DNA of 64,000 bases from Patescibacteria group bacterium (GCA_041671645.1 JBAZBD010000001.1:265357-329356); one strand, 5' to 3'. Positions 724-55,679 are shown, counted from the stretch's first letter. The notes: generated by a model from the letters alone, not told the origin. Numbers and translations are program-made.

Positions 724-1269
724 TTAATTGTCTTTGGCTATTTTAGTTTTGGTCTCGATTTTTTCTAAAATCTCAAGAAGAGCTAGCAGAATTGCTTTTG
801 GTGTTGGTGGATCGCCAGGAATCGAATAATTGACTGGTATTACTTTGTTGACGCCATCCAACACAGCGTAAGAACCTTTGAATATTCCGCCATCGATGGC
901 GTCATCGCCAACGGCTACGACAATCTTGGGGTCGGGAGTCGCTTCGTAAGTCTTGATTAGCGCCTTTTCCATATTTCTTGAGACTGGGCCAGTCACCATC
1001 AGCATATCGGCGTGTCTGGGGGAAGCGACAAAGTGAATGCCAAATCTTTCTGAATCATAAAAACAGTTGGAGAGGGCGGTGAGCTCGTGTTCACAAGCAT
1101 TGGAGGAACCGGCGTCAACTTCGCGAATGGCGAGAGAACCTCTGAACAATTTCTTGACTTTGGCTTCAATCTTTTTGCCAATCAACAAAACTTCGCCGTC
1201 CAAAAGTAAATCTCTGGGCTCGATAATTGTTTTCTGAGTCTTAAGTATTTTAGTAAAGAGGTTGGGCAT
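724..1269 (-). CDS. NuoB / NiFe-hydrogenase small-subunit homolog with degenerate Fe-S ligands (Ehr-like)
   Basis: Strong similarity to the NuoB C-terminal half (SPRHADMLMVTGPVS...IVVAVG..A.DGG...VIPVNYSIPG.PP). Cluster N2 ligand positions read NAC (for CC), GDDAIDGG (for GSCANGGG) and IPGDPP (for GCPP), so only 1 of 4 Cys is retained. Confidence 0.7.
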   Translation of the reverse strand: MPNLFTKILKTQKTIIEPRDLLLDGEVLLIGKKIEAKVKKLFRGSLAIREVDAGSSNACEHELTALSNCFYDSERFGIHFVASPRHADMLMVTGPVSRNMEKALIKTYEATPDPKIVVAVGDDAIDGGIFKGSYAVLDGVNKVIPVNYSIPGDPPTPKAILLALLEILEKIETKTKIAKDN

Positions 1270-5833: not shown

Positions 5834-7162
5834 CTATGATACCAGCTCTGGGAGCGCGTTCAAAGCCTCTTTGACACTGTCAAATTCTTTGCAGTAGTAG
5901 AGGCCGTTGGCGGCCAGTCCGGCGTGGGTGGAGCTGCTGGCGTGACGGGGAACGACGACATCGAGACCCGAAAATTCAAGCGCTTTGACGAAGGCGGCGT
6001 TTTCGGCCCAGCCACCGGTAATTGCGACTTTGCAAATCAGCGGGATTTGCAAAGTTTCTGCTACACGATCTGCTTCGTGTACCATTGCAACGGCGACTCC
6101 GCGGAGATAGGCGGCAATGCCCTTACTTGGATCTTTGAAATTGGTGCAGACCCAGGCCGGCAGATTCGGAGCCAGAATAGTTTCGAGTGGCAGCGGCTCG
6201 ACCAGTCTGACCACTTCTGCGGCCGACTCGGACGCTTCGCAGTAACTCAGGTCGAAGTGACCGATCAGCTCTTTGTACATGGGGCCGAACATCCCGGTGT
6301 TGGTGACGGCGGCGCGGGTGGGGCCGAGGCCTTCAAAGTTGATGTTGGCCTTGAATGTGGTGCTTGTTGGAACGACGTTGTCAGGAATTCGTACGGTTGT
6401 ACCGAGCCAACTGCCGGTCCAGAAGACCCAATTACACTCAGTCAGCCCAACCAGGCGAGAGAGGACCGAGTCGTGAGAAGTTGCGAGAACTCTCGAACTT
6501 TTGTACCCAGACATTACGGCTCCGTCTTCGAGAATCGGACCTGCTCCAATCATTTCTCCTGGTATTGCACCGAAATTAGCTCCAGCATAAATCGAGGCAG
6601 CGGTCGAAGCGTGCAGTCCCATGCTTTGGCGCATGGTCTCGTCGTGCCCTGGTATTCCGCCGGACAATTTCCAGTTGATTAGTCCGGAAAACGGTACGAC
6701 GCCTAAGATGTCGCTTACGGAGAGTAATTCTGGGCAAAGGCGCTCTGTGGCGGCCAATATGCCAAGCGGTTGATAGAAGGCCGCAGCGGCTCCACCGGAG
6801 AGGAGATACATCTCTTCCCTGGTACGACCGACTTTGGCCAGCGCGTTTTCCAGGTCGGCTTCGGTGACCGATCGGTAATGCGGCAGGGGATACGTTGTCC
6901 CGCCCATACGGAGGCAGAATAGTAAGTCTGCACCCCACATGCCGGAGACGACGATGTCGCCCGGCTCTACAATATTCTTGGTGATCTGGTCGAGAGTGTC
7001 GGCCAGCCACTGGATGGGCCACTCCCAGAGTGGGCCATCAATTATCCAGGGGATCTTCTCTTCAAGCAAGATCCGGGCCCCGTCTTTGTCGTAGCTGACC
7101 ACCGATAACCCAGTAGTAGCACCGAGCACGATGGAAATAACGCGAGAATTGAATTGTGCCAT
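5834..7162 (-). CDS. FGGY-family carbohydrate kinase (rhamnulokinase-like)
   Basis: Actin-fold kinase signatures: N-terminal GMWGADLLF (compare IDTWGVDF), LATSHDSV (compare VASHDTASA) and C-terminal ITGGWAENAAFVKAL (compare IVGGGCQN). The gene looks GC-rich relative to its neighbours. Confidence 0.55.
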   Translation of the reverse strand: MAQFNSRVISIVLGATTGLSVVSYDKDGARILLEEKIPWIIDGPLWEWPIQWLADTLDQITKNIVEPGDIVVSGMWGADLLFCLRMGGTTYPLPHYRSVTEADLENALAKVGRTREEMYLLSGGAAAAFYQPLGILAATERLCPELLSVSDILGVVPFSGLINWKLSGGIPGHDETMRQSMGLHASTAASIYAGANFGAIPGEMIGAGPILEDGAVMSGYKSSRVLATSHDSVLSRLVGLTECNWVFWTGSWLGTTVRIPDNVVPTSTTFKANINFEGLGPTRAAVTNTGMFGPMYKELIGHFDLSYCEASESAAEVVRLVEPLPLETILAPNLPAWVCTNFKDPSKGIAAYLRGVAVAMVHEADRVAETLQIPLICKVAITGGWAENAAFVKALEFSGLDVVVPRHASSSTHAGLAANGLYYCKEFDSVKEALNALPELVS

Positions 7163-9502: not shown

Positions 9503-9588
9503 GGGCGAATGGTGAAATGGCAGACACGCAGCGTTCAGAGCGCTGTGAGAGCAATCTCGTGGAGGTTCAAGTCCTCTTTCGCCCACCA
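9503..9588 (+). tRNA. tRNA-Leu (CAG), class II with long variable arm, CCA encoded
   Basis: Acceptor GGGCGAA/TTCGCCC, anticodon stem-loop CAGCG-TTCAGAG-CGCTG, T-loop TTCAAGT. Confidence 0.75.
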
Positions 9589-9687
9589 AAATAAGATTCA
9601 AAAGAGGCGGCTTTACGGTCGCTTCTTTTTTTGTTACGGTCTGGTGGGCAAATGCCCGTACACATATATTTTAAGGGGGGTTATCTC

Positions 9688-11019
9688 ATGCGTATATTCG
9701 GAATAGTCGCGGAGCCAGGTATAGATATCTGGCTTGATATCATCGTGGCTCTAAGCCTGCAAGGTTATGCAGGACCGCGAGGATGCGGCTTCGGTCTTCG
9801 GACCAAGGCTGGTCTCCAGCTTTGGCACTCGGCTTTGGTAGCCGCCCAAGCCTTTGCGAGGATGTCCGCTAGCGAAATTTCGGGATATGTAGGCAATATT
9901 GGTATCGGTTGCAATTCAACGACCGGTGTCATGATGCCAATTCGTTTCTCAAATCTCAGCGGGGATGACATTTTAGTGGTTATCGACAGCAATGTTCAAA
10001 CTGCTAAGGATGTTGTTGAGCAAATGGAACGGGGGACAACATTACGTGATTCCGTCGAGATTGCGATGAGGAATGTCGTGGGACATTTTGCTTTGGTCGC
10101 AATGTCGAACGATGATGAGATTGTCTGCGGTCGAAACAGCGGGCTTATGCCCTTATCGATAAGCAAGATAGTCGGCGACCATGGCGTCGAGGCTATGTAC
10201 GTCTCGTCTTCAAGCAGAGTTCTCAACCGAGGCGTCTCGTTCGTCCGTAGCGTTATGCCTGGGGAGATAGCTGTTCTGAGCTGTAATGGCTTTATTGCCG
10301 AAGGTATCAACATAATTGAAAACCTCGGTTGCCCACTGGAGGGATTGTTTCATCTACCGCCAGGCGATCAATTCGGCGGAATTGGGGTTCAGGATATCCG
10401 TTATGCTACCGGGAGAGCTCTCGGTCATAATGTTTTGAGAGATCGCCCCGAAATTATTGATAAGAACTGTGTCGTCATAGCAATCCCTGATGGTGGCAAC
10501 AAAGTAGCCGAAGGATTAGCTTATCAGCTTGGAGTAAAGTTTTTGTCGAACTTGGCTGTTAAAAACCGCTATCCAGACAATAAAGGGATCAAAAACCTGA
10601 CCATTCGTGGAGTTGCAATTAGCAGCAAGTACACTCTAGCAGGTGCAATCCCGATTCGCTTGCCAGGAGTTGAGATGTTCAATGAGATGCTGAATGGAAA
10701 GAACGTGTTCCTTGTCGACGACTCTTTCTATTCTGGTTGGACATTCGAGCATTTTCTCTATCTTTGCAAGGAAGCTGGCGCTGATAAGGTGCATGGATTT
10801 GCACCAACAATTGCGGGTAGTCCGTGCTCTTACGGCAAGGATGCTCATCGTGAAGGATCAAAGGCGCGGGATCACACTGGTCAGATAGATCAGATAGCCA
10901 GGGATATCGGCCTTGATAGTTTTACAACACTTTCTCGTAGGGAGCTTATTGGGGCGATCAACACGCCGCAGAAGATACTCTGCACAGAATGCCTGTGCTT
11001 CTCGCCCCAGCTAGATTAG
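9688..11019 (+). CDS. PurF-like amidophosphoribosyltransferase homolog lacking the N-terminal catalytic Cys (glutaminase-dead paralog)
   Basis: The protein aligns by eye along its whole length with PurF: GNIGIG.., GHFALVAMSNDDEIVCGRNSGLMPL, MYVSSSS, VMPGEIAV, the PRPP loop KNVFLVDDSFYSGWT and C-terminal Cys residues. However the N-terminus reads MRIFGIV rather than MCGIVG. The start is assigned to the ATG after the AAGGGGGG RBS. Confidence 0.6.
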   Translation: MRIFGIVAEPGIDIWLDIIVALSLQGYAGPRGCGFGLRTKAGLQLWHSALVAAQAFARMSASEISGYVGNIGIGCNSTTGVMMPIRFSNLSGDDILVVIDSNVQTAKDVVEQMERGTTLRDSVEIAMRNVVGHFALVAMSNDDEIVCGRNSGLMPLSISKIVGDHGVEAMYVSSSSRVLNRGVSFVRSVMPGEIAVLSCNGFIAEGINIIENLGCPLEGLFHLPPGDQFGGIGVQDIRYATGRALGHNVLRDRPEIIDKNCVVIAIPDGGNKVAEGLAYQLGVKFLSNLAVKNRYPDNKGIKNLTIRGVAISSKYTLAGAIPIRLPGVEMFNEMLNGKNVFLVDDSFYSGWTFEHFLYLCKEAGADKVHGFAPTIAGSPCSYGKDAHREGSKARDHTGQIDQIARDIGLDSFTTLSRRELIGAINTPQKILCTECLCFSPQLD

Positions 11020-11047
11020 CTGGGGCAATTTTAATCCAAATTTTTCT

Positions 11048-11076
11048 TTGACAAAAATAAAGTAATTTGCTATGGT
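11048..11076 (+). promoter_or_regulatory. Putative sigma70-type promoter
   Basis: TTGACA - 17 nt spacer - TATGGT. Confidence 0.4.
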
Positions 11077-11128
11077 GAGTAAGTTAAAACATTATTAAAC
11101 CAGCTTGAATATTTAGATAAGTTATATT

Positions 11129-11149
11129 CGGGCTGCGGCCCGTTTTTTT
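11129..11149 (+). terminator. Rho-independent terminator/attenuator hairpin immediately upstream of tRNA-Val
   Basis: CGGGC-TGCG-GCCCG followed by TTTTTTT. Confidence 0.5.
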
Positions 11150-11151
11150 AT

Positions 11152-11228
11152 GCGCGCTTAGCTCAGTTGGTTAGAGCATCTCGTTTACACCGAGAGGGTC
11201 GGGGGTTCGAATCCCTCAGCGCGCACCA
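11152..11228 (+). tRNA. tRNA-Val (UAC), CCA encoded
   Basis: GCGCGCTTAGCTCAGTTGGTTAGAGC..., anticodon loop TTTACAC, GGTTCGAATCC T-arm. Confidence 0.8.
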
Positions 11229-11315
11229 GGGCGAATGGTGAAATTGGTATACACGCTACCTTGAGGTGGTAGTGGGAGCAATCCCGTGGAGGTTCAAGTC
11301 CTCTTTCGCCCACCA
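11229..11315 (+). tRNA. tRNA-Leu (GAG), class II, CCA encoded
   Basis: Acceptor and T-arm identical to the tRNA-Leu at 9503. Anticodon stem-loop CTACC-TTGAGGT-GGTAG. Confidence 0.7.
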
Positions 11316-14690: not shown

Positions 14691-14775
14691 GCCCGAGTGG
14701 TGGAATGGTAGACACAAGGGACTTAAAATCCCTCGCCTAAACAGCGTGCCGGTTCGACTCCGGCCTCGGGTACCA
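14691..14775 (+). tRNA. tRNA-Leu (UAA), class II, CCA encoded
   Basis: Anticodon stem-loop AGGGA-CTTAAAA-TCCCT, long variable arm, T-loop TTCGACT. Confidence 0.75.
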
Positions 14776-20281: not shown

Positions 20282-21274
20282 GTGAAAACGGAAAAGGAAA
20301 AAGGTATTGAACCAATGGAAAGAAAATTTATGGATCTCCTCCATGGTCAATGGGACGCTGGGAAATTCTCTTGTGTGGGTCTGGACACTAATCACCGGGA
20401 AATTTCCGATGAGATTAAGGCTTCTTTGGCAAATGCAGTAGGCTCGACGTCTGTTGCCATTGTCAGGCGATTTAATCGCAAGATTATCGAAGCAACGGCA
20501 GACCTGGCTGGGATGTACAAGCCAAACATTGCGTTTTATGAGGCGTTAGGATCTCAAGGTCTGGACGTGCTACGATCGACAGTGGCCTATATCCACCAGG
20601 TTGCTCCGCAAGTGCCGGTGATATTGGATGCTAAGAGGGCCGACATCGGCTCGACAAACAAGGGTTATGTCGACATGATCGACTGGCTTGGGGCCGATGC
20701 TATCACTGCCCACCCGTATCTCGGGAGCGAAGCGTTGGGACCATTTCTGGAACGTAAAGACAAAGGTGTTATTGTCCTTTGTCGAACCTCGAACCCAGGT
20801 GCCAAAGAGTTGCAAAATTATTTTGTCATTGTAAAAACGGGCGATGAGCATAGATTTTTCTTTGAGAATAATTTGGCGAATCATCTTGCGATTGATTATC
20901 GCGATACTCCTAACAACGCAACGTCTCATCAAATTGCCGTTCCTCTCTACCAGCATTTGGCTTACAAGATAAGCACCGCGTGGAATGGTAATGGCAATTG
21001 CTGTCTCGTCGTCGGAGCGACTTATCCGGAAGAGATGGCAATCGTTCGCAAGATTGCGCCCAAACTCCCATTCCTAATACCAGGAGTAGGGAAACAAGGT
21101 GGCACCGCTACTGATGCCGTGAAAAACGGGAAGGATGCGAATGGCCAAGGGATGATTATCAATAGCTCCCGTGGCATCATCTTCGCCTCCAAGGGCATTG
21201 ATTTTCCAACCGTTGCTCGAGAGCAACTCGAAGCTCTCAATGACGAAATTCGCCAGGCGCTTGAAGTCGCCTGA
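20282..21274 (+). CDS. pyrF: Orotidine 5'-phosphate decarboxylase, type 2 (long form)
   Basis: YKPNIAFYEALGSQGLDVL...VILDAKRADIGSTNKGY...ITAHPYLG. The start could be the internal M at 20315. Confidence 0.75.
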   Translation: MKTEKEKGIEPMERKFMDLLHGQWDAGKFSCVGLDTNHREISDEIKASLANAVGSTSVAIVRRFNRKIIEATADLAGMYKPNIAFYEALGSQGLDVLRSTVAYIHQVAPQVPVILDAKRADIGSTNKGYVDMIDWLGADAITAHPYLGSEALGPFLERKDKGVIVLCRTSNPGAKELQNYFVIVKTGDEHRFFFENNLANHLAIDYRDTPNNATSHQIAVPLYQHLAYKISTAWNGNGNCCLVVGATYPEEMAIVRKIAPKLPFLIPGVGKQGGTATDAVKNGKDANGQGMIINSSRGIIFASKGIDFPTVAREQLEALNDEIRQALEVA

Positions 21275-21287
21275 AAGGAGCATAATT

Positions 21288-22043
21288 ATGACTGAACAAG
21301 AGAAAGACTTGATGCAGCCTTTGTTTGTCAGGGGCGGATACTACGATTGCCCCAAGGACCCAGAGGGCATTCGAATGGGGCCGATGGTCGGCTATGCCGG
21401 ACTCGGCGCTAACGGCCTGCAGAAGGTCGGAGACAAATACTTCGATTATTCAACAATCGAAGGTACCGTTCACAACGAGGCGTTTGCTGCTGTGATCGCA
21501 AAGGCGGTTTTTAAGGAATTGAATCCTGAAAGTGTTGTAGTATATGGCATGCCGATGGGCGGTATATATTTAGCTGGCGAAGTGGCACGTTGGCTTCGGT
21601 TTTACACAGAGGCCGAAGCGGCTTTTATGGAAAAAAAGGTTACCGCCTTGGCGACAGAGAGCATCCGTGAGCAGTCGATCTTGTCCTTCGGACGTTATGC
21701 GCCGAAACCGGGCCAGAAAATTCTTCTCTGCGATGATGTTTTCAATAACGGCACCACTACAGGTCTTGCGATTGACATGTTTGAAGAGGCCGGGGCAGAA
21801 GTCATCGGGATACTTTGTGCCATTAATCGGTCATGGCCTTCTATCACTGCTTATGAACGTAAAGGGGACAAGCCGGCGGTTGCAATTATCGCCGGAGTTA
21901 CGCTTCCGACAGAGCAGTGGGAGCAGTCCGATCCGAAGGTTGCAAGCGATTTGAAGCGTTTCCCATTAGTTAAGAAGCCGAAAATGGCACGCAAGGAGTT
22001 GCAGAAGATCATGGCCGATCTCATGTACGGCCAGGTTACCTAA
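21288..22043 (+). CDS. pyrE: Orotate phosphoribosyltransferase-like PRTase
   Basis: PRPP-binding loop KILLCDDVFNNGTTTG. RBS AAGGAG. Lies directly after pyrF. Confidence 0.6.
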   Translation: MTEQEKDLMQPLFVRGGYYDCPKDPEGIRMGPMVGYAGLGANGLQKVGDKYFDYSTIEGTVHNEAFAAVIAKAVFKELNPESVVVYGMPMGGIYLAGEVARWLRFYTEAEAAFMEKKVTALATESIREQSILSFGRYAPKPGQKILLCDDVFNNGTTTGLAIDMFEEAGAEVIGILCAINRSWPSITAYERKGDKPAVAIIAGVTLPTEQWEQSDPKVASDLKRFPLVKKPKMARKELQKIMADLMYGQVT

Positions 22044-32059: not shown

Positions 32060-32641
32060 ATGGCTAAGCTTGCGTTACTGTCCGTCTACAATAAGGACGG
32101 CATTGTCGAGTTTGCTAAGTCGTTAATCGAACTTGGCTTTTCAATCATCTCTTCTGGCGGCACTGCCAAGTGTCTGCAGGAGAATGGTGTTGAGACTTCT
32201 CTTGTCGCTGACTTAGTCGGCGGCGGTCCGATCCTCGGTCACCGTGTTGTCACTCTTTCGCGGGAAATACACGCAGCGCTTCTGGCTACCGAGAAAGATA
32301 GCGAAGAGCTGGCGGAGCTGGGCATTCCTCGGATCGATCTGGTCTGCGTCGATCTTTACCCACTACAGGATGAGATTGACAGACCTGGTGCCACTCTGGA
32401 ATCGATCATCGAGATGACTGATATCGGCGGTCCGTGCATGCTGCGCTCAGCTGCCAAGGGCAATCGCATCGTCATCTCCGACTTTGCTCAGCGAGTGAAG
32501 GTTCTCAAATGGCTTAAAGATGGTGAACCAAATCCTGAATTCATCCGGAACAGCCTTGCAATCAGGGCCGAGGAAATCGTTGCTTATTATTGCTTGGTTT
32601 CCGCAAAGGCCAGACGCGATCATGCACCCGATTTTGATTAA
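32060..32641 (+). CDS. Stand-alone PurH N-terminal (MGS-like / IMP cyclohydrolase) domain protein
   Basis: LALLSVYNKDGIVEFAKSLIELGFSIISSGGTAKCL...IDLVCVDLYPLQ...TDIGGPCMLRSAAKGN matches the PurH IMPCH domain. No AICAR-formyltransferase domain follows; the protein ends at 193 aa. Confidence 0.65.
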   Translation: MAKLALLSVYNKDGIVEFAKSLIELGFSIISSGGTAKCLQENGVETSLVADLVGGGPILGHRVVTLSREIHAALLATEKDSEELAELGIPRIDLVCVDLYPLQDEIDRPGATLESIIEMTDIGGPCMLRSAAKGNRIVISDFAQRVKVLKWLKDGEPNPEFIRNSLAIRAEEIVAYYCLVSAKARRDHAPDFD

Positions 32642-32747: not shown

Positions 32748-33899
32748 TTATCCTGCAACCCAGCCGTTGAGGCCGTGTTCCTGTTGAGCGGAGTGGGAGC
32801 AGATGTAGAAATCTGCATATTCCCAGAGTTTTTCAATCCGCTGGCATCCTTGCGCGTACATTCCTTCAACGATTGCGGCTTGCATTTCTGCAATTTTGTC
32901 GCTGATAGGACCACAGGCGGGAACCCAGATCTCTCCGCCGGCCGGCAGACGGGTATTTTTCAACCCGTGATATTCGCGCTGCTTGAGCTTGAGCGAGTGC
33001 TCGATTTCTTTCGGCGAGCCCATGCCACTATAGAGGCAGAACTCCTTACTTTTCCATTTTCCGAAATATCGATGGTACCGTTCGGGGACATCTTCTTTGC
33101 GAAATCGTTTGCGTGGAGCGGGCGATTCGTCGCATCCCGCGAACTGATTCCCCATCATTACTGCACTGGCGCCGAGGGCCAGAGCGATAACGATCTGTCC
33201 GTTTGTCTCGATCCCTCCGTCTGCAATAAGTTGCACTGACCGATTACTAACGGCCAAGGCTCGAGCAACCTCGCGAATGGCGGTTGCTTGGGGCACGCCG
33301 TTTCCGGTCTGTGTCCGATATATACAAATATGGCCGGGACCAATCCCAACACGCAATGTGCTGGCGCCTGCGTCTATTAGGTAAGAGGCGGCGTCGTAAG
33401 TGGCAATATTCCCACCCATCGTTACAATATGAGGGAATTCTTGTTTCAGGGCACTAACCACTTTGCAGACTTGAGCAAGCGAGTCGCCGTACCAGTCTGC
33501 GTCTGCGTCGGCCGTGTCGCCGAGGATCAAGTCGGCGCCTGCTTTTACGGCTCTTTCGACCAGCCGCATCAGTTTGAGAAACTCTGTTCCGTCTCGATAG
33601 CTCAAGTCTAGAGCCACCCCAACAGGGACTTCGTGTTGTTTGGCCCGAAAGATTGTCTCAATCAGGTCATCGGGAAGATATGAACGGGGCAAAATACCAA
33701 GTGCGCCAGCTCTACCGGCCGCAATTGTAGTTTCAAGCCCTGTTACGGATCGCATCGGTGAAGTGATGATTGGAACTCGGAGTTGCAATTTTCTGTCCAA
33801 ATTAATTGATGTATCAACTTGGGCAGGGAATATTGAGCTGTGCCGTGGTTTCAATATCAAATCGCCGTAAGAATATCCTGGGTCAAATTTTGTTGGCAT
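32748..33899 (-). CDS. IMP dehydrogenase / GMP reductase family TIM-barrel protein without CBS pair
   Basis: Catalytic Cys loop GIGPGHICIYRTQTG, IADGGI and GASAVMMG. No CBS subdomain insertion. Confidence 0.7.
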   Translation of the reverse strand: MPTKFDPGYSYGDLILKPRHSSIFPAQVDTSINLDRKLQLRVPIITSPMRSVTGLETTIAAGRAGALGILPRSYLPDDLIETIFRAKQHEVPVGVALDLSYRDGTEFLKLMRLVERAVKAGADLILGDTADADADWYGDSLAQVCKVVSALKQEFPHIVTMGGNIATYDAASYLIDAGASTLRVGIGPGHICIYRTQTGNGVPQATAIREVARALAVSNRSVQLIADGGIETNGQIVIALALGASAVMMGNQFAGCDESPAPRKRFRKEDVPERYHRYFGKWKSKEFCLYSGMGSPKEIEHSLKLKQREYHGLKNTRLPAGGEIWVPACGPISDKIAEMQAAIVEGMYAQGCQRIEKLWEYADFYICSHSAQQEHGLNGWVAG

Positions 33900-54411: not shown

Positions 54412-54784
54412 ATTCATCGAAGTCTCGAGTCAAGTTTTAGGACTTGATTGGAGCAAAATGTTTGGTTTTGTAATCGTGGTAATTCAAGATTCCAAGACCA
54501 ATGTAGTGCTGATGGTCGGGGTAATGAATGAAGCGGCGCTTCGCATTACCTTGGCCACCGGGAAGGTGACTTTTTGGTCTAGAACTCGAGATAAACTATG
54601 GACCAAGGGGGAAACTTCCGGCAATTTCCTAAATGTTTGTGAGATCTTGGTCGACTGCGACCGAGATACACTTCTCATTCTAGTCGAGCCAATCGGCCCG
54701 ACTTGCCACACTGGTGCCGTTAGCTGTTTTGAAGAGGCTAATGGTGAATTGCGAATCTTCAAAATGGGAGAAGAAAATGTTTGA
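54404..54784 (+). CDS. hisI: Phosphoribosyl-AMP cyclohydrolase (monofunctional HisI)
   Basis: VVIQDSKTNVVLMVGVMNEAALRITLATGKVTFWSRTRDKLWTKGETSGNFLNV.EILVDCDRDTLLILVEP.GPTCHTGAVSCF matches the HisI core including the metal-binding Cys residues. Confidence 0.8.
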   Translation: MSKFIEVSSQVLGLDWSKMFGFVIVVIQDSKTNVVLMVGVMNEAALRITLATGKVTFWSRTRDKLWTKGETSGNFLNVCEILVDCDRDTLLILVEPIGPTCHTGAVSCFEEANGELRIFKMGEENV

Positions 54785-55679
54785 ATTTTTAGCGGGTTTT
54801 GCTCTGGCAGTGCCAGATGGGTCCATGGAAGCAGTCGTGATCAATTGGCTCAAAAAAGCTGGAATCGCGATTCTCTTTTCGAACGGTCGAGTCAAAACTG
54901 GTACGACCAATGTTCCTTTTATTCAATCATTGACGTTATTGCGTCCGCAGGAAATACCGATATATCTCGAAAAAGGGTGTTTCCAGGTGGCAATTGCCAA
55001 CGAAGATTGGATTGCAAATTGGCAGTCTGATGTAGTCATCCTTGCTCGTTTTCCGATTGCGAGGGCGACAAATCAGGCGGTGAGAATAGTTCTAGCCGTG
55101 TCTAAGGCAAGTGGCTATGAGGCTATCGGAGATTTGCCCAAAGGGTCAACGATAGCGACCGAATATGTCGAGTTGACAGGGCAGTATCTAGCCCAAAAGG
55201 GCCGAGCTGATATCGAGGTGATTCGTTCTTGGGGCGGCACCGAACAGAAGATAAAGTTTGGTGCTGCTGCGATTGTTGAATTAACCGAAACGGGTAGCTC
55301 ACTTATCTCAAACGGTTTGAAAATTATCGATGAAATCATGATTTCCAATACTGTTATCGCGGTAAATCGCGAGGCATACAATAACATAGATCTGCGTCCG
55401 CAGATAGATTGGTTTGTTGAGGTGATGAAGGGTGCAAATCTGGCAGATAGTTATGTATTCGTTCAGGCCAATGTTTCGGAAGGAGCAGTAAAGAAAGCGT
55501 CCGAAATTCTTGGCGGAATGTATGCGCCGACTATCAGCTCGCTTACAACTTCTGGCTGGTATTCGATATCTGCCTATGTGCTAAAAAATTGTCAGCACGA
55601 AATAGTCTTCCAATTATTGCAGATGGAAGTAAAAGATATCTGTGTTCACGATAATATATCCATGGTCTTGGGTCGTTAA
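54777..55679 (+). CDS. hisG: ATP phosphoribosyltransferase, long form with C-terminal regulatory domain
   Basis: PRPP-binding region AIVELTETGSSLISNGLKII and length about 300 aa. The start overlaps the hisI stop. Confidence 0.75.
   Translation: MFEFLAGFALAVPDGSMEAVVINWLKKAGIAILFSNGRVKTGTTNVPFIQSLTLLRPQEIPIYLEKGCFQVAIANEDWIANWQSDVVILARFPIARATNQAVRIVLAVSKASGYEAIGDLPKGSTIATEYVELTGQYLAQKGRADIEVIRSWGGTEQKIKFGAAAIVELTETGSSLISNGLKIIDEIMISNTVIAVNREAYNNIDLRPQIDWFVEVMKGANLADSYVFVQANVSEGAVKKASEILGGMYAPTISSLTTSGWYSISAYVLKNCQHEIVFQLLQMEVKDICVHDNISMVLGR

What the first reader, a model, noticed from the sequence alone, without database searches (positions are those of the whole stretch)
9503..11315. Glutaminase-dead PurF paralog carried between two near-identical tRNA-Leu direct repeats
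The ORF at 9688-11019 matches PurF along both the Ntn-glutaminase and PRTase domains. It lacks the obligatory N-terminal Cys (MRIFGIV instead of MCGIVG) and has altered oxyanion and PRPP-loop residues (DDSFYSGWT instead of DDSIVRGTT). It is flanked by tRNA-Leu(CAG) at 9503-9588 and tRNA-Leu(GAG) at 11229-11315. These two tRNAs share identical 5' 16 nt and 3' ~40 nt (acceptor and T-arm) and differ only in the D/anticodon region, so they act as 86-nt direct repeats bracketing a 1.6-kb cassette. Three readings are possible: an inactive regulatory paralog, a PRPP-dependent enzyme using ammonia or another nucleophile, or a cassette inserted or duplicated at a tRNA-Leu locus. The rest of de novo purine synthesis (purD, M, C, E, K, N, L, B) is absent from the window.
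Basis: partly seen in the sequence, partly recalled or inferred. Interest (0 to 1): 0.7.

Follow-up and report, generated by a model that had tools for sequence, protein, structure and literature searches.

The report
Diverged glutaminase-dead PurF-like iron-sulfur protein
This gene from a tiny-genome groundwater-type (CPR/Patescibacteria) bacterium encodes a real, conserved relative of the first purine-synthesis enzyme, PurF, that has lost its glutamine-splitting machinery; the tRNA genes on either side are ordinary neighbours, not the ends of a mobile cassette.

Summary
ORF 9688-11019 encodes a 443-aa protein with the two-domain PurF fold. It has no N-terminal Cys and none can be restored upstream. 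It lies between tRNA-Leu(CAG) and tRNA-Leu(GAG), which are 85% identical.

The protein belongs to a small family found only in Berkelbacteria-like Patescibacteria. Across the family the glutamine site is dismantled, and the residues that hold the pyrophosphate of PRPP are also lost. The four [4Fe-4S] cysteines and the ribose-5-phosphate loop are kept. dN/dS is 0.15-0.22 in both domains.

The tRNA-Leu / gene / tRNA-Val / tRNA-Leu arrangement recurs in about 18 loci, down to 26% protein identity. Relatives without the gene still carry all three tRNAs. So this is an old resident locus with a patchy distribution, not a recently inserted cassette.

My best reading is a glutamine-independent protein that binds a phosphoribosyl compound or nucleotide and carries an Fe-S cluster, with a non-canonical role. 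The main rival is an ammonia-dependent phosphoribosylamine synthase; a purD gene lies next to the locus in one relative. Function is unproven. I rate it a new variant of a known kind, of moderate interest.

The parts
9503..9588 (+). tRNA-Leu(CAG), complete gene. It is conserved directly downstream of the SBP_bac_5 gene in carriers and in non-carriers.
   Evidence: ARAGORN; Rfam tRNA 49.8 bits; synteny maps
9600..9636 (+). Terminator-like hairpin plus T-run after tRNA-Leu(CAG). It separates the tRNA from the PurF-like ORF.
9688..11019 (+). PurF-like ORF, 443 aa (P0001). Residues 1 to about 205 are a degenerate Ntn/class-II glutaminase-like domain without a nucleophile. Residues from about 215 to 443 are a type-I PRTase domain.
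9985..9987 (+). Codon for Asp100. It occupies the position of the oxyanion-hole Asn101 of PurF and is Asp in 28 of 29 family members.
10330..10332 (+). Cys215 codon, equivalent to B. subtilis PurF Cys236 ([4Fe-4S] ligand). Invariant in the family.
10348..10350 (+). Phe221 codon. It replaces the invariant Tyr (E. coli Y258) that contacts the pyrophosphate of PRPP.
   Evidence: role of the Tyr from PMC7056826
10561..10698 (+). Region after the conserved VKNRY motif (residues about 292-337). It replaces the PurF flexible loop. The equivalents of R332, F334, I335 and P337 are absent, and the clade has its own SKYTLAG motif. Model confidence is low here.
10717..10743 (+). PRPP (ribose-5-phosphate) loop, DDSFYSGWT. 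The acidic pair and the Gly are retained; the Arg of PurF's RGTT is replaced by Ser.
10825..10827 (+). Cys380 codon ([4Fe-4S] ligand equivalent). Conserved in 28 of 29 family members.
10981..10992 (+). Cys432-x-x-Cys435 (CTEC), the last two [4Fe-4S] ligand equivalents. Invariant in the family.
11004..11036 (+). Terminator-like hairpin overlapping the stop codon of the ORF.
11048..11076 (+). Promoter-like site (TTGACA, 17 nt, TATGGT, with an extended TG) upstream of the tRNA-Val / tRNA-Leu pair.
   Evidence: a consensus match only
It lies between the ORF and the second tRNA-Leu.
   Evidence: 72.5 bits
11229..11315 (+). tRNA-Leu(GAG), complete gene, 85% identical to tRNA-Leu(CAG).

Best explanation
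The ORF is a resident, lineage-specific and strongly diverged descendant of a B. subtilis-type (Fe-S-containing) PurF. It is found only in Berkelbacteria-like Patescibacteria and always at this tRNA-rich locus.

Shown: it cannot work as a glutamine amidotransferase. It has no N-terminal nucleophile (Met-Arg start). The glutamine-binding and oxyanion residues are gone, and a 19-residue segment of the glutaminase domain is deleted.

Shown: the PRTase half is also remodelled. [quoted passage not shown]

Shown: what is kept under purifying selection is the overall two-domain fold, the four [4Fe-4S] cysteine ligands (the best-conserved feature of the family), the ribose-5-phosphate-binding PRPP loop, and a new set of conserved polar residues in the old glutamine pocket (Arg2, Tyr27, Asp100, Asn150).

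Inferred: the protein most likely acts as a glutamine-independent Fe-S protein that binds a 5-phosphoribosyl compound or nucleotide at the surviving site. In PurF that site is where AMP and GMP bind. I therefore favour a sensor, regulatory or otherwise non-canonical role over the canonical first step of purine synthesis.

Shown: the flanking tRNA-Leu genes are two ordinary isoacceptor genes that have been partly homogenised in this lineage. They are not attachment-site repeats.
For: Fold and family.
- TIGR01134 scores 90 bits, below the 350 cutoff. PF00156 scores 28.6 bits, above its 26.3 cutoff.
- The AF2 model has pLDDT 90.5 and TM 0.78-0.80 to 1ECB, 1AO0 and 6CZF.

Loss of glutaminase residues in all 29 family sequences.
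- Cys1 is kept in only 8 of 29. The others have S, G, A, D, P or Met-Arg.
- HRG is changed to Y-A-G.
- The RYST stretch is deleted.
- N101 is changed to Asp in 28 of 29.
- D127 is deleted.

Loss of PRPP-pyrophosphate contacts.
- E. coli Y258 is Phe in 83% of the family (F221 here).
- The R332 equivalent is kept in 0%.
- The flexible-loop residues are absent.
- The second Thr of RGTT is kept in 3%. PMC7056826 reports that mutating this Tyr nearly abolishes activity.

Retention.
- C215, C432 and C435 are at 100%, C380 at 97%, D345 at 97% and G350 at 97%.
- dN/dS is 0.15-0.22 overall, 0.16-0.26 in the N domain and 0.13-0.18 in the C domain, among four close homologues.

Residency.
- The gene order is identical in about 18 carrier loci down to 26% identity.
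- Divergence of the gene tracks that of its flanking genes.

Other.
- No riboswitch lies upstream of the gene.
- No PurD from the 867,751-bp or 971,566-bp contigs appears among the best 120 PurD relatives.
Against: - No ligand, partner or activity has been demonstrated, so 'sensor/regulator' is inference from what is conserved.
- There is no DNA-binding domain. There is also no conserved partner gene, because the neighbourhood is simply inherited synteny.
- A bona fide purD (406 bits) lies 2.3 kb upstream of the orthologous gene in one Berkelbacteria MAG (L005), and a weak PurN-like gene lies in the same position in L001. The window itself keeps a PurH IMP-cyclohydrolase domain and an IMPDH-like gene. 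This is compatible with a still-working purine role.
- Type-I PRTases bind PPi largely through backbone atoms and Mg2+, so side-chain losses do not prove loss of catalysis.
- The clade-specific conserved SKYTLAG loop could be a functional replacement of the flexible loop.
- The AF2 alignment included canonical PurFs, which biases the model toward the PurF fold.
Confidence: 0.45

Rival explanations
1. Ammonia-dependent phosphoribosylamine synthase. The PRTase domain still condenses PRPP with free NH3. The glutaminase domain has become a structural appendage. The enzyme feeds a residual, dispersed purine (or thiamine-precursor) pathway.
For: - The DDS PRPP loop and the VKNRY motif are retained in this protein.
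- A bona fide purD lies beside the ortholog in L005 and a PurN-like gene lies beside it in L001.
- A PurH IMP-cyclohydrolase domain and an IMPDH-like gene are in the window.
- The gene is under purifying selection.
- No canonical PurF from the same contigs appeared in the PurF-directed searches.
- From established knowledge: Cys1 mutants of PurF keep NH3-dependent activity.
Against: - The Y258 equivalent is Phe, the R332 equivalent is missing and the flexible loop is replaced. Mutating the Tyr alone nearly abolishes activity in AtGPRAT2.
- The first Asp of the DD pair and other site residues vary across the family.
- No PurD from this contig is among the top 120 PurD relatives.
- The gene is absent from sister genomes (L009, L008, L006, L007).
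Confidence: 0.25
2. Neo-functionalised enzyme. The remodelled pockets carry out a different reaction on a phosphoribosyl substrate or another amide, possibly using the Fe-S cluster. The relevant features are Arg2, Tyr27, Asp100, Asn150 and Gln175 in the former glutamine site, and the new loop near the PRPP site.
For: - Family-specific residues are conserved where the canonical ones were lost: D100 at 97%, R2 at 83%, Y27 at 79%, G269 at 100%.
- Cys or Ser follows the initiator Met in 15 of 29 family members.
- Both domains are under purifying selection.
Against: - The window's own clade has Gly, Ala or Met-Arg at the N-terminus, so no Ntn nucleophile is possible there.
- The candidate catalytic residues are not invariant.
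- Gene context does not point to any substrate.
Confidence: 0.15
3. Mobile or duplicated cassette. A 1.6-1.8-kb segment was inserted at, or mobilised between, tRNA-Leu genes that act as direct repeats.
For: - The two tRNA-Leu genes are 85% identical here.
- The gene is patchily distributed among relatives. The slot after tRNA-Leu(CAG) holds different genes in different genomes: a 481-aa ORF in L003, a GIY-YIG ORF in L001, and two hydrolase-like ORFs in L006.
- Simple parsimony on NJ trees allows one ancient transfer instead of 5-6 losses.
Against: - The slot and order are the same in about 18 carriers down to 26% identity, and divergence matches the flanks.
- Empty sites keep all three complete tRNAs, so no deletion occurred between the repeats.
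- Both repeats are full tRNAs with different anticodons. There is no integrase or transposase, and GC is 0.46-0.48, like the rest of the window.
- High Leu/Leu identity does not track presence of the gene.
Confidence: 0.05
4. Functionless relic of a purine pathway that is being lost.
For: - Both catalytic sites are degraded.
- The gene is missing in many sister genomes.
- Other pur genes in the lineage are fragmentary or scattered: a PurH IMP-cyclohydrolase domain alone here, purD only in L005.
Against: - The reading frame is intact in all of about 30 diverse sequences.
- dN/dS is 0.15-0.22 in both halves.
- The Fe-S ligands are invariant.
- The protein is 443 aa, retained in a genome of under 1 Mb.
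Confidence: 0.05
5. PRTase-domain toxin or effector of an anti-phage system, ShosT/PsyrT-like, sitting in a variable hotspot.
For: - Weak PADLOC hits to PsyrT (24.7 bits) and ShosT (17.5 bits), limited to the PRPP-loop region.
- The slot is variable among relatives.
Against: - The hits cover only the generic PRTase motif.
- No ShosA/PsyrA-like partner gene is adjacent; the gene stands alone between tRNAs.
- The full-length PurF architecture and long vertical residency do not fit a defence island.
Confidence: 0.03

Closest known systems
Bacillus subtilis-type glutamine PRPP amidotransferase (PurF, EC 2.4.2.14; PDB 1GPH/1AO0; TIGR01134)
   Same: - Two-domain Ntn plus type-I PRTase fold (TM about 0.78).
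- All four [4Fe-4S] cysteine ligands.
- The RxxGxxPL, PGE and VKNRY motifs and the DDS...G PRPP loop.
- It is the best sequence match in the PDB: E 4e-22 for the single sequence, 4.5e-56 for the family profile.
   Different: - No Cys1 and no propeptide.
- R26, R73-Y74, N101 and D127 are replaced or deleted, and 19 residues are deleted after the N101 position.
- The Y258 equivalent is Phe, the R332 equivalent and flexible loop are replaced, and PDSG is PDGG.
- The C-terminus ends right after the CxxC motif.
- It scores 90 bits against the 350-bit equivalog cutoff.
Escherichia coli PurF (PDB 1ECB/1ECC/6CZF)
   Same: Overall fold (TM 0.78-0.80) and PRPP-loop chemistry.
   Different: E. coli PurF has no Fe-S cluster and has a C-terminal helix. 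It has the full glutaminase and channel apparatus, which this protein lacks.
PRTase-fold proteins that bind PRPP or nucleotides without (or besides) catalysis, such as B. subtilis PurR and PyrR (from my own knowledge, not tested here)
   Same: The functional analogy I favour: a type-I PRTase core with a retained PRPP loop used for ligand sensing.
   Different: Those proteins have DNA- or RNA-binding functions and no Ntn domain or Fe-S cluster. There is no sequence relationship beyond the PRTase core, and no nucleic-acid-binding domain here.
Amidotransferase-derived pseudoenzymes, for example the viral pseudo-GATs reviewed in PMC7605207 (abstract seen)
   Same: A purine-pathway amidotransferase homologue that has lost catalytic residues but is retained for another role.
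   Different: A different parent family, a viral context, and no PRTase domain or Fe-S cluster.
ShosT / PsyrT PRTase-domain defence toxins (PADLOC)
   Same: Weak similarity at the PRPP-loop region (17-25 bits).
   Different: No partner gene, a different architecture, and a stable syntenic locus. Considered and rejected.

Membership tests
PurF / amidophosphoribosyltransferase (TIGR01134 equivalog) | Whole-protein score at or above the curated cutoff (350 bits) | tested here: not met
   90.3 bits for the window protein, and 73 and 97 bits for family members from L005 and L004.
PurF / amidophosphoribosyltransferase | Two-domain architecture: N-terminal Ntn glutaminase fold plus C-terminal type-I PRTase | tested here: met
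   AF2 model with pLDDT 90.5. Foldseek TM 0.78-0.80 to 1ECB, 1AO0 and 6CZF over about 480 columns. Caveat: canonical PurFs were in the input alignment.
PurF / amidophosphoribosyltransferase | N-terminal catalytic Cys (Cys1), exposed by Met or propeptide removal | tested here: not met
   The protein starts MRIFGIV and there is no in-frame Cys upstream. The nine members of its clade have G, A or R after Met. PMC7056826 reports that mutating the N-terminal Cys abolishes activity.
PurF / amidophosphoribosyltransferase | Glutamine-site residues (E. coli R26, R73/Y74, N101/G102, D127) | tested here: not met
   R26 is Ala. The RYST stretch is deleted. N101 is Asp100. D127 falls in a deleted segment. 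The residue roles come from the established PurF literature, cited from my own knowledge.
PurF / amidophosphoribosyltransferase | PRPP loop (DDS...G) binding ribose-5-phosphate | tested here: met
   DDSFYSGWT at residues 344-352. D345 and G350 are 97% conserved in the family.
PurF / amidophosphoribosyltransferase | PRPP-pyrophosphate contacts and the flexible loop (E. coli Y258, K326, R332, loop 326-350) | tested here: not met
   Y258 is replaced by F221. The R332 equivalent is kept in 0% of the family. F334, I335 and P337 are absent. Only the K/R/Y of VKNRY are kept.
PurF, B. subtilis class | Four Cys ligands of the [4Fe-4S] cluster | tested here: met
   C215, C380, C432 and C435 align with the cluster cysteines and are 97-100% conserved. 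Actual cluster binding cannot be tested with these tools.
PurF as part of de novo purine synthesis | Co-occurrence with purD, purN, purL, purM, purC, purB and purH in the same genome | tested here: inconclusive
   In the 64-kb window only a PurH IMP-cyclohydrolase domain and an IMPDH-like gene are present. No PurD from this contig is among the best 120 PurD relatives. purD is adjacent in relative L005. The whole genome could not be read.
Type-I phosphoribosyltransferase domain (Pfam PF00156) | Pfam gathering score | tested here: met
   28.6 bits against a 26.3 cutoff, residues 258-369.
Class-II (Ntn) glutamine amidotransferase domain (PF13522, PF13537, PF00310) | Pfam match and N-terminal nucleophile | tested here: not met
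   No GATase Pfam hit at E <= 1, and none is precomputed for P0001-P0009. There is no nucleophile. Only the fold is retained.
tRNA-targeted integrative element / genomic island | Integrase or recombinase gene in the segment | tested here: not met
   The only sizeable ORF between the tRNAs is the PurF-like gene.
tRNA-targeted integrative element / genomic island | Direct repeat formed by a partial tRNA copy (attL/attR), with an empty site holding a single tRNA | tested here: not met
   Both repeats are complete tRNAs with different anticodons. Empty-site relatives L007, L008, L009, L013 and L014 keep Leu(CAG), Val and Leu(GAG).
tRNA-targeted integrative element / genomic island | Compositional anomaly, or a phylogeny incongruent with the flanking genes | tested here: not met
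   GC is 0.46-0.48 against a window mean of about 0.46. PurF-like identities scale with those of SBP, S1 and ComM. An ancient transfer cannot be strictly excluded.
ShosTA / PsyrTA defence systems | Toxin HMM match plus an adjacent antitoxin partner | tested here: not met
   17-25-bit hits restricted to the PRPP loop, and no partner gene.

The most novel reading that the evidence does not exclude
The family is a previously undescribed functional class derived from PurF. It is an Fe-S-cluster protein that has given up glutamine hydrolysis. One possibility is that it is the sole, ammonia-dependent entry point to purine synthesis in Berkelbacteria-like CPR bacteria. Another is that it has become a redox- and nucleotide/PRPP-sensing protein, or a new phosphoribosyl-utilising enzyme that uses a rebuilt pocket (Arg2, Tyr27, Asp100, Asn150).
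Probability: 0.3. Interest if true: 0.6.

Novelty: new variant of a known kind. Interest (0 to 1): 0.4.

Why it matters
CPR/Patescibacteria are thought to depend on hosts for nucleotides, and pathway calls in their genomes rest on automatic names. This protein is labelled 'amidophosphoribosyltransferase' or 'glutamine PRPP amidotransferase' in JGI and 'phosphoribosyltransferase family protein' in NCBI.

The analysis shows that it cannot be a glutamine-dependent PurF, so metabolic reconstructions that count it as step 1 of purine synthesis are unsafe.

If it is an ammonia-dependent PRA synthase, it would show a minimal route into purines in ultra-small bacteria. If it is a pseudoenzyme, it is a clean case of a central amidotransferase being kept for its Fe-S or ligand-binding scaffold in a genome of under 1 Mb.

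It also shows that near-identical neighbouring isoacceptor tRNA genes can mimic att repeats.

Tried and rejected
- AF2 on the 9-sequence clade alignment gave an unusable model (pLDDT 43). It was redone with 74 sequences.
- The word-indexed profile search with the 27-sequence family alignment recovered almost none of the distant family. The exhaustive representative search was the informative one.
It was repeated with 10 sequences.
- I searched for PurD of the same genome by looking for contig length 867,751 or 971,566 among PurD relatives. None appeared in the best 120, so this is only weak evidence of absence.
- The PurD contexts of the top relatives (L086-L088) contained no PurF-like gene and were uninformative.
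- I looked for PurF-like pseudogene remnants in nine empty or alternative sites. Nothing was above chance; the best E-value was 0.24.
- Rfam found only the three tRNAs. No purine, PRPP or ZTP riboswitch lies upstream.
- PADLOC gave only generic PRTase-motif hits.
- Literature searches for Berkelbacteria purine metabolism, Patescibacteria amidophosphoribosyltransferase and Cys-less PurF paralogues found nothing on this family.
- Extending the window with contigs from another assembly showed only hydrogenase/Mrp-like genes on the left side and the same window genes on the right.
- The afdb50 fold library was unavailable.
Full report
**1. What is in the sequence**

The region reads, in order:
- tRNA-Leu(CAG), 9503-9588
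- a terminator-like hairpin, 9600-9629 plus a T-run
- a Shine-Dalgarno-like AAGGGGGG run
- an ORF from ATG 9688 to the stop at 11017-11019 (443 aa, MRIFGIV...)
- a hairpin overlapping the stop codon, 11004-11026
- a promoter-like TTGACA-17-TATGGT site, 11048-11076
- tRNA-Val(TAC), 11152-11228
- tRNA-Leu(GAG), 11229-11315

The in-frame sequence upstream of the ATG, back to the stop at 9592-9594, contains no cysteine. The refuting condition 'an upstream extension restores Cys1' therefore fails.

The two tRNA-Leu genes are 75/88 identical. They share 16 identical bases at the 5' end and 31 at the 3' end, then one mismatch and 8 more. The third tRNA-Leu (TAA, 14691-14775) is only 54/89 identical to the CAG gene.

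**2. What the protein is**

Pfam sees only a type-I PRTase domain: PF00156, 28.6 bits against a 26.3 cutoff, residues 258-369. NCBIfam gives purF TIGR01134 at 90.3 bits, far below the 350-bit equivalog cutoff, covering residues 99-436. The best PDB sequence matches are B. subtilis PurF 1GPH/1AO0 (E 4e-22), followed by E. coli and Arabidopsis PurF.

A first AlphaFold run on nine sequences failed (pLDDT 43). A second run on a 74-sequence alignment gave pLDDT 90.5 and pTM 0.89. Foldseek matched that model over its full length to PurF structures, with TM 0.78-0.80 to 1ECB, 1AO0, 6CZF, 8W7D and 6LBP. The next-best matches, GlmS/GFAT, share only the Ntn domain. So both PurF domains are present as folds. 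One caveat is that canonical PurFs were part of the input alignment.

**3. The family**

The identical protein is on record: P0001, from an NCBI 'MAG: Patescibacteria group bacterium', on an 867,751-bp contig. NCBI names it 'phosphoribosyltransferase family protein' and JGI names it a glutamine PRPP amidotransferase.

Eight homologues at 37-52% identity follow. After them there is a gap down to canonical PurFs at E about 1e-19.

An exhaustive profile search of 1.84 billion representative proteins found about 25 further, more distant clusters of 397-440 aa that match from the N-terminus. Two of these carry Candidatus Berkelbacteria names.

I aligned 29 family sequences against 45 canonical PurFs and checked the key positions with HMM alignments to PDB chains.

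Glutaminase half:
- The residue at the Cys1 position is Cys in only 8 of 29. It is Ser in 7, Gly in 6 and Ala in 4, with Asp, Pro or Met-Arg in the rest.
- The window's own clade has Gly, Ala or Met-Arg, none of which can be an Ntn nucleophile.
- HRG (E. coli R26) becomes Y-A-G.
- The R73-Y74-S-T stretch is deleted.
- N101 is Asp in 28 of 29.
- D127 falls in a 19-residue deletion.
- The canonical 'RD' and 'ASE' motifs become 'RN' and 'SSQ'.

PRTase half:
- The invariant Tyr (E. coli Y258) is Phe in 83% of the family (F221 here). PMC7056826 reports that this Tyr contacts the PRPP pyrophosphate and that mutating it nearly abolishes activity.
- The R332 equivalent and the following flexible-loop residues (F334, I335, P337) are absent.
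- PDSG is PDGG in all members.
- The second Thr of RGTT is retained in 3%.

What is retained:
- The four cysteines that ligate the [4Fe-4S] cluster in B. subtilis-type PurF: C215, C432 and C435 at 100%, and C380 at 97%.
- The second Asp and the Gly of the PRPP loop, both at 97%. This protein has the full DDS...SG.T form.
- The VKNRY, RxxGxxPL and PGE motifs.
- A set of family-specific conserved residues: R2, Y27, D100, N150 and Q175.

**4. Is it under selection?**

I computed Nei-Gojobori dN/dS for four close homologues whose DNA I could fetch (L003, L089, L090, L091). It is 0.15-0.22 overall, 0.16-0.26 in the N-terminal half and 0.13-0.18 in the C-terminal half. The 'dead' domain is therefore still constrained, and the gene is not a pseudogene. 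All family sequences have intact reading frames.

**5. Is it a cassette?**

Gene order around the gene is ComM ... tRNA-Phe/Cys/Gly - (SecG) - SBP_bac_5 - tRNA-Leu(CAG) - PurF-like - tRNA-Val/tRNA-Leu(GAG) - 126-aa membrane protein - S1 - Lactamase_B_3 - DHH - tRNA-Leu(TAA).

This order is reproduced in every carrier locus I could find. That is about 18 loci from JGI, ENA, Logan and NCBI. They include distant ones where the PurF-like protein is only 26-30% identical and S1 only 52-53% identical: L004, L099, L100 and L101.

I scanned GTDB genomes with the upstream SBP gene as the query. This returned 80 loci, and none of them carries the PurF-like gene. The closest of these show two patterns:
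- L007, L008, L009, L013 and L014 have tRNA-Leu(CAG), tRNA-Val and tRNA-Leu(GAG) side by side.
- L006 has two unrelated hydrolase-like ORFs in the slot.

No remnants of the PurF-like gene are detectable in these sites.

NJ trees of ComM, S1, SBP and DHH place the carriers in two groups. The first (window, L001, L003/L097, L005) is nested deep in the tree. The second (L004, L100, L101) is basal. Non-carriers form a ladder between them. Two histories fit this:
- The gene is ancestral and was lost 5-6 times. This is plausible for reductive CPR genomes. It also fits the scattered purD (L005) and PurN-like (L001) genes at the same neighbouring position.
- There was one ancient transfer into the same slot.

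PurF-like identities scale with those of the flanking genes. SBP is about 50% identical within the first group and 27-30% between groups. PurF-like is 36-49% and 26-30% respectively. I therefore favour vertical descent. Either way, the arrangement predates the divergence of the window's clade.

Further points against a mobile element:
- There is no integrase, and GC is unremarkable.
- Both flanking repeats are complete tRNAs with different anticodons.
- The CAG/GAG identity is 94% in L001, 85% in the window and L097, and 90% in L006, which has no PurF-like gene. It is about 65% in carriers L003, L004 and L005 and in the empty sites L007-L009.
- So the similarity reflects lineage-specific homogenisation of neighbouring isoacceptor genes, not att repeats.

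The slot after tRNA-Leu(CAG) is nonetheless variable among relatives. L003 has a 481-aa coiled-coil ORF there, L001 a GIY-YIG ORF, and L006 two hydrolase-like ORFs. This is the one part of the cassette idea that survives.

**6. Purine context**

It does contain the following:
- a stand-alone PurH IMP-cyclohydrolase domain at 32060-32641 (154 bits to profile positions 5-185 of 510), with no AICAR-formyltransferase domain beside it
- a CBS-less IMPDH/GMP-reductase-family gene at 32748-33899(-)
- PyrF, and a weak PyrE-like PRTase
- a lone long-form HisG

A bona fide purD (406 bits against a 288 cutoff) lies 2.3 kb upstream of the ortholog in the Berkelbacteria MAG GCA_026397135.1 (L005).

I searched with that PurD against the protein collection. 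Among the best 120 hits there was none from an 867,751-bp or 971,566-bp contig. This is only weak evidence that those genomes lack purD. I could not read the whole genome.

**7. Interpretation**

Firm conclusions:
- This is a real, conserved, lineage-restricted PurF derivative.
- It cannot hydrolyse glutamine by the Ntn mechanism.
- It sits in an old syntenic locus rather than a mobile cassette.

Inferred:
- The pyrophosphate contacts and the closing loop are lost as well. Even the first Asp of the DD pair and the residue at the Cys1 position vary across the family. The Fe-S ligands and the ribose-5-phosphate loop are what selection keeps most strictly.
- From this I favour a glutamine-independent, phosphoribosyl- or nucleotide-binding Fe-S protein with a non-canonical (sensor, regulatory or new) role, at about 0.45.
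- Ammonia-dependent PRA synthesis is the main rival, at about 0.25. It is supported by the purD neighbour and the retained DDS/VKNRY motifs.
- A neo-functionalised enzyme is at about 0.15.
- A recent cassette, a functionless relic, or a defence toxin (PADLOC hits only to the generic PRTase motif) are each unlikely.

**8. Novelty**

I found no paper on this family. Databases give it generic or misleading names. It is best described as a new variant of a known kind. It is of moderate interest, mainly as a caution for CPR metabolic reconstruction and as a candidate pseudoenzyme or minimal PurF.

Noticed in passing
window 32060-32641 (+): A 193-aa gene encodes only the N-terminal IMP-cyclohydrolase (MGS-like) domain of PurH (NF002049, 154 bits, profile positions 5-185 of 510). 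No AICAR-formyltransferase domain is adjacent. It is a truncated or split purine gene.
   Followed up: partly
window 32748-33899 (-): A 383-aa IMPDH/GMP-reductase family protein without CBS domains (TIGR01302, 203 bits, below its cutoff), convergent with the PurH-fragment gene.
   Followed up: no
window 54714-55679 (+): A long-form HisG (ATP phosphoribosyltransferase, HisG plus HisG_C domains) with no other histidine-biosynthesis gene next to it. This is another lone PRPP-using 'first-step' enzyme in the same genome.
   Followed up: no
window 20282-22043 (+): PyrF (TIGR02127, 219 bits) overlapping or abutting a weak PyrE-like PRTase (40 bits, below its cutoff). The genome keeps the last steps of pyrimidine synthesis.
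   Followed up: no
window 5834-7162 (-): A 442-aa ORF with no Pfam, NCBIfam or PADLOC hit, in a GC-rich stretch (0.56 against a window mean of 0.46). It lies between ComM and the tRNA-Gly/Cys/Phe cluster. Relatives have purD (L005) or a PurN-like gene (L001) near this position.
   Followed up: partly
window 11048-11149 (+): A promoter-like site (TTGACA-17-TATGGT) is followed about 55 nt later by a GC hairpin and a T7 run (11129-11149), immediately before tRNA-Val. This may be a short transcript or a processing or attenuation signal. There is no Rfam match.
   Followed up: partly
L003 8449-9894; L001 9585-9824; L006 9673-11196: The slot between tRNA-Leu(CAG) and the next gene holds different cargo in relatives. 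L003 has a 481-aa coiled-coil ORF, L001 a 79-aa GIY-YIG ORF, and L006 an alpha/beta-hydrolase-like ORF plus a HAD-like ORF in place of the PurF-like gene. This is a local hotspot of gene-content variation.
   Followed up: partly
tRNA-Leu(CAG)/(GAG) pairs in window, L001, L097 and L006 versus L003-L005 and L007-L009: Identity between the two isoacceptor genes ranges from about 65% to 94% among related genomes. This points to repeated gene conversion or anticodon-shift replacement between neighbouring tRNA-Leu genes.
   Followed up: partly
PurF-like genes of L003, L089, L090, L091: Synonymous divergence differs two- to three-fold between the N- and C-terminal halves, in opposite directions for different pairs (for example dS 0.95 versus 0.27, and 0.24 versus 0.67). 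This suggests intragenic recombination among related populations.
   Followed up: no
L103 (left of the window) and window 724-1269 (-): A cluster of Oxidored_q6, Proton_antipo_M, NADHdh and Complex1_30/49kDa genes. It looks like a membrane-bound hydrogenase or Mrp-like complex in this small genome.
   Followed up: no
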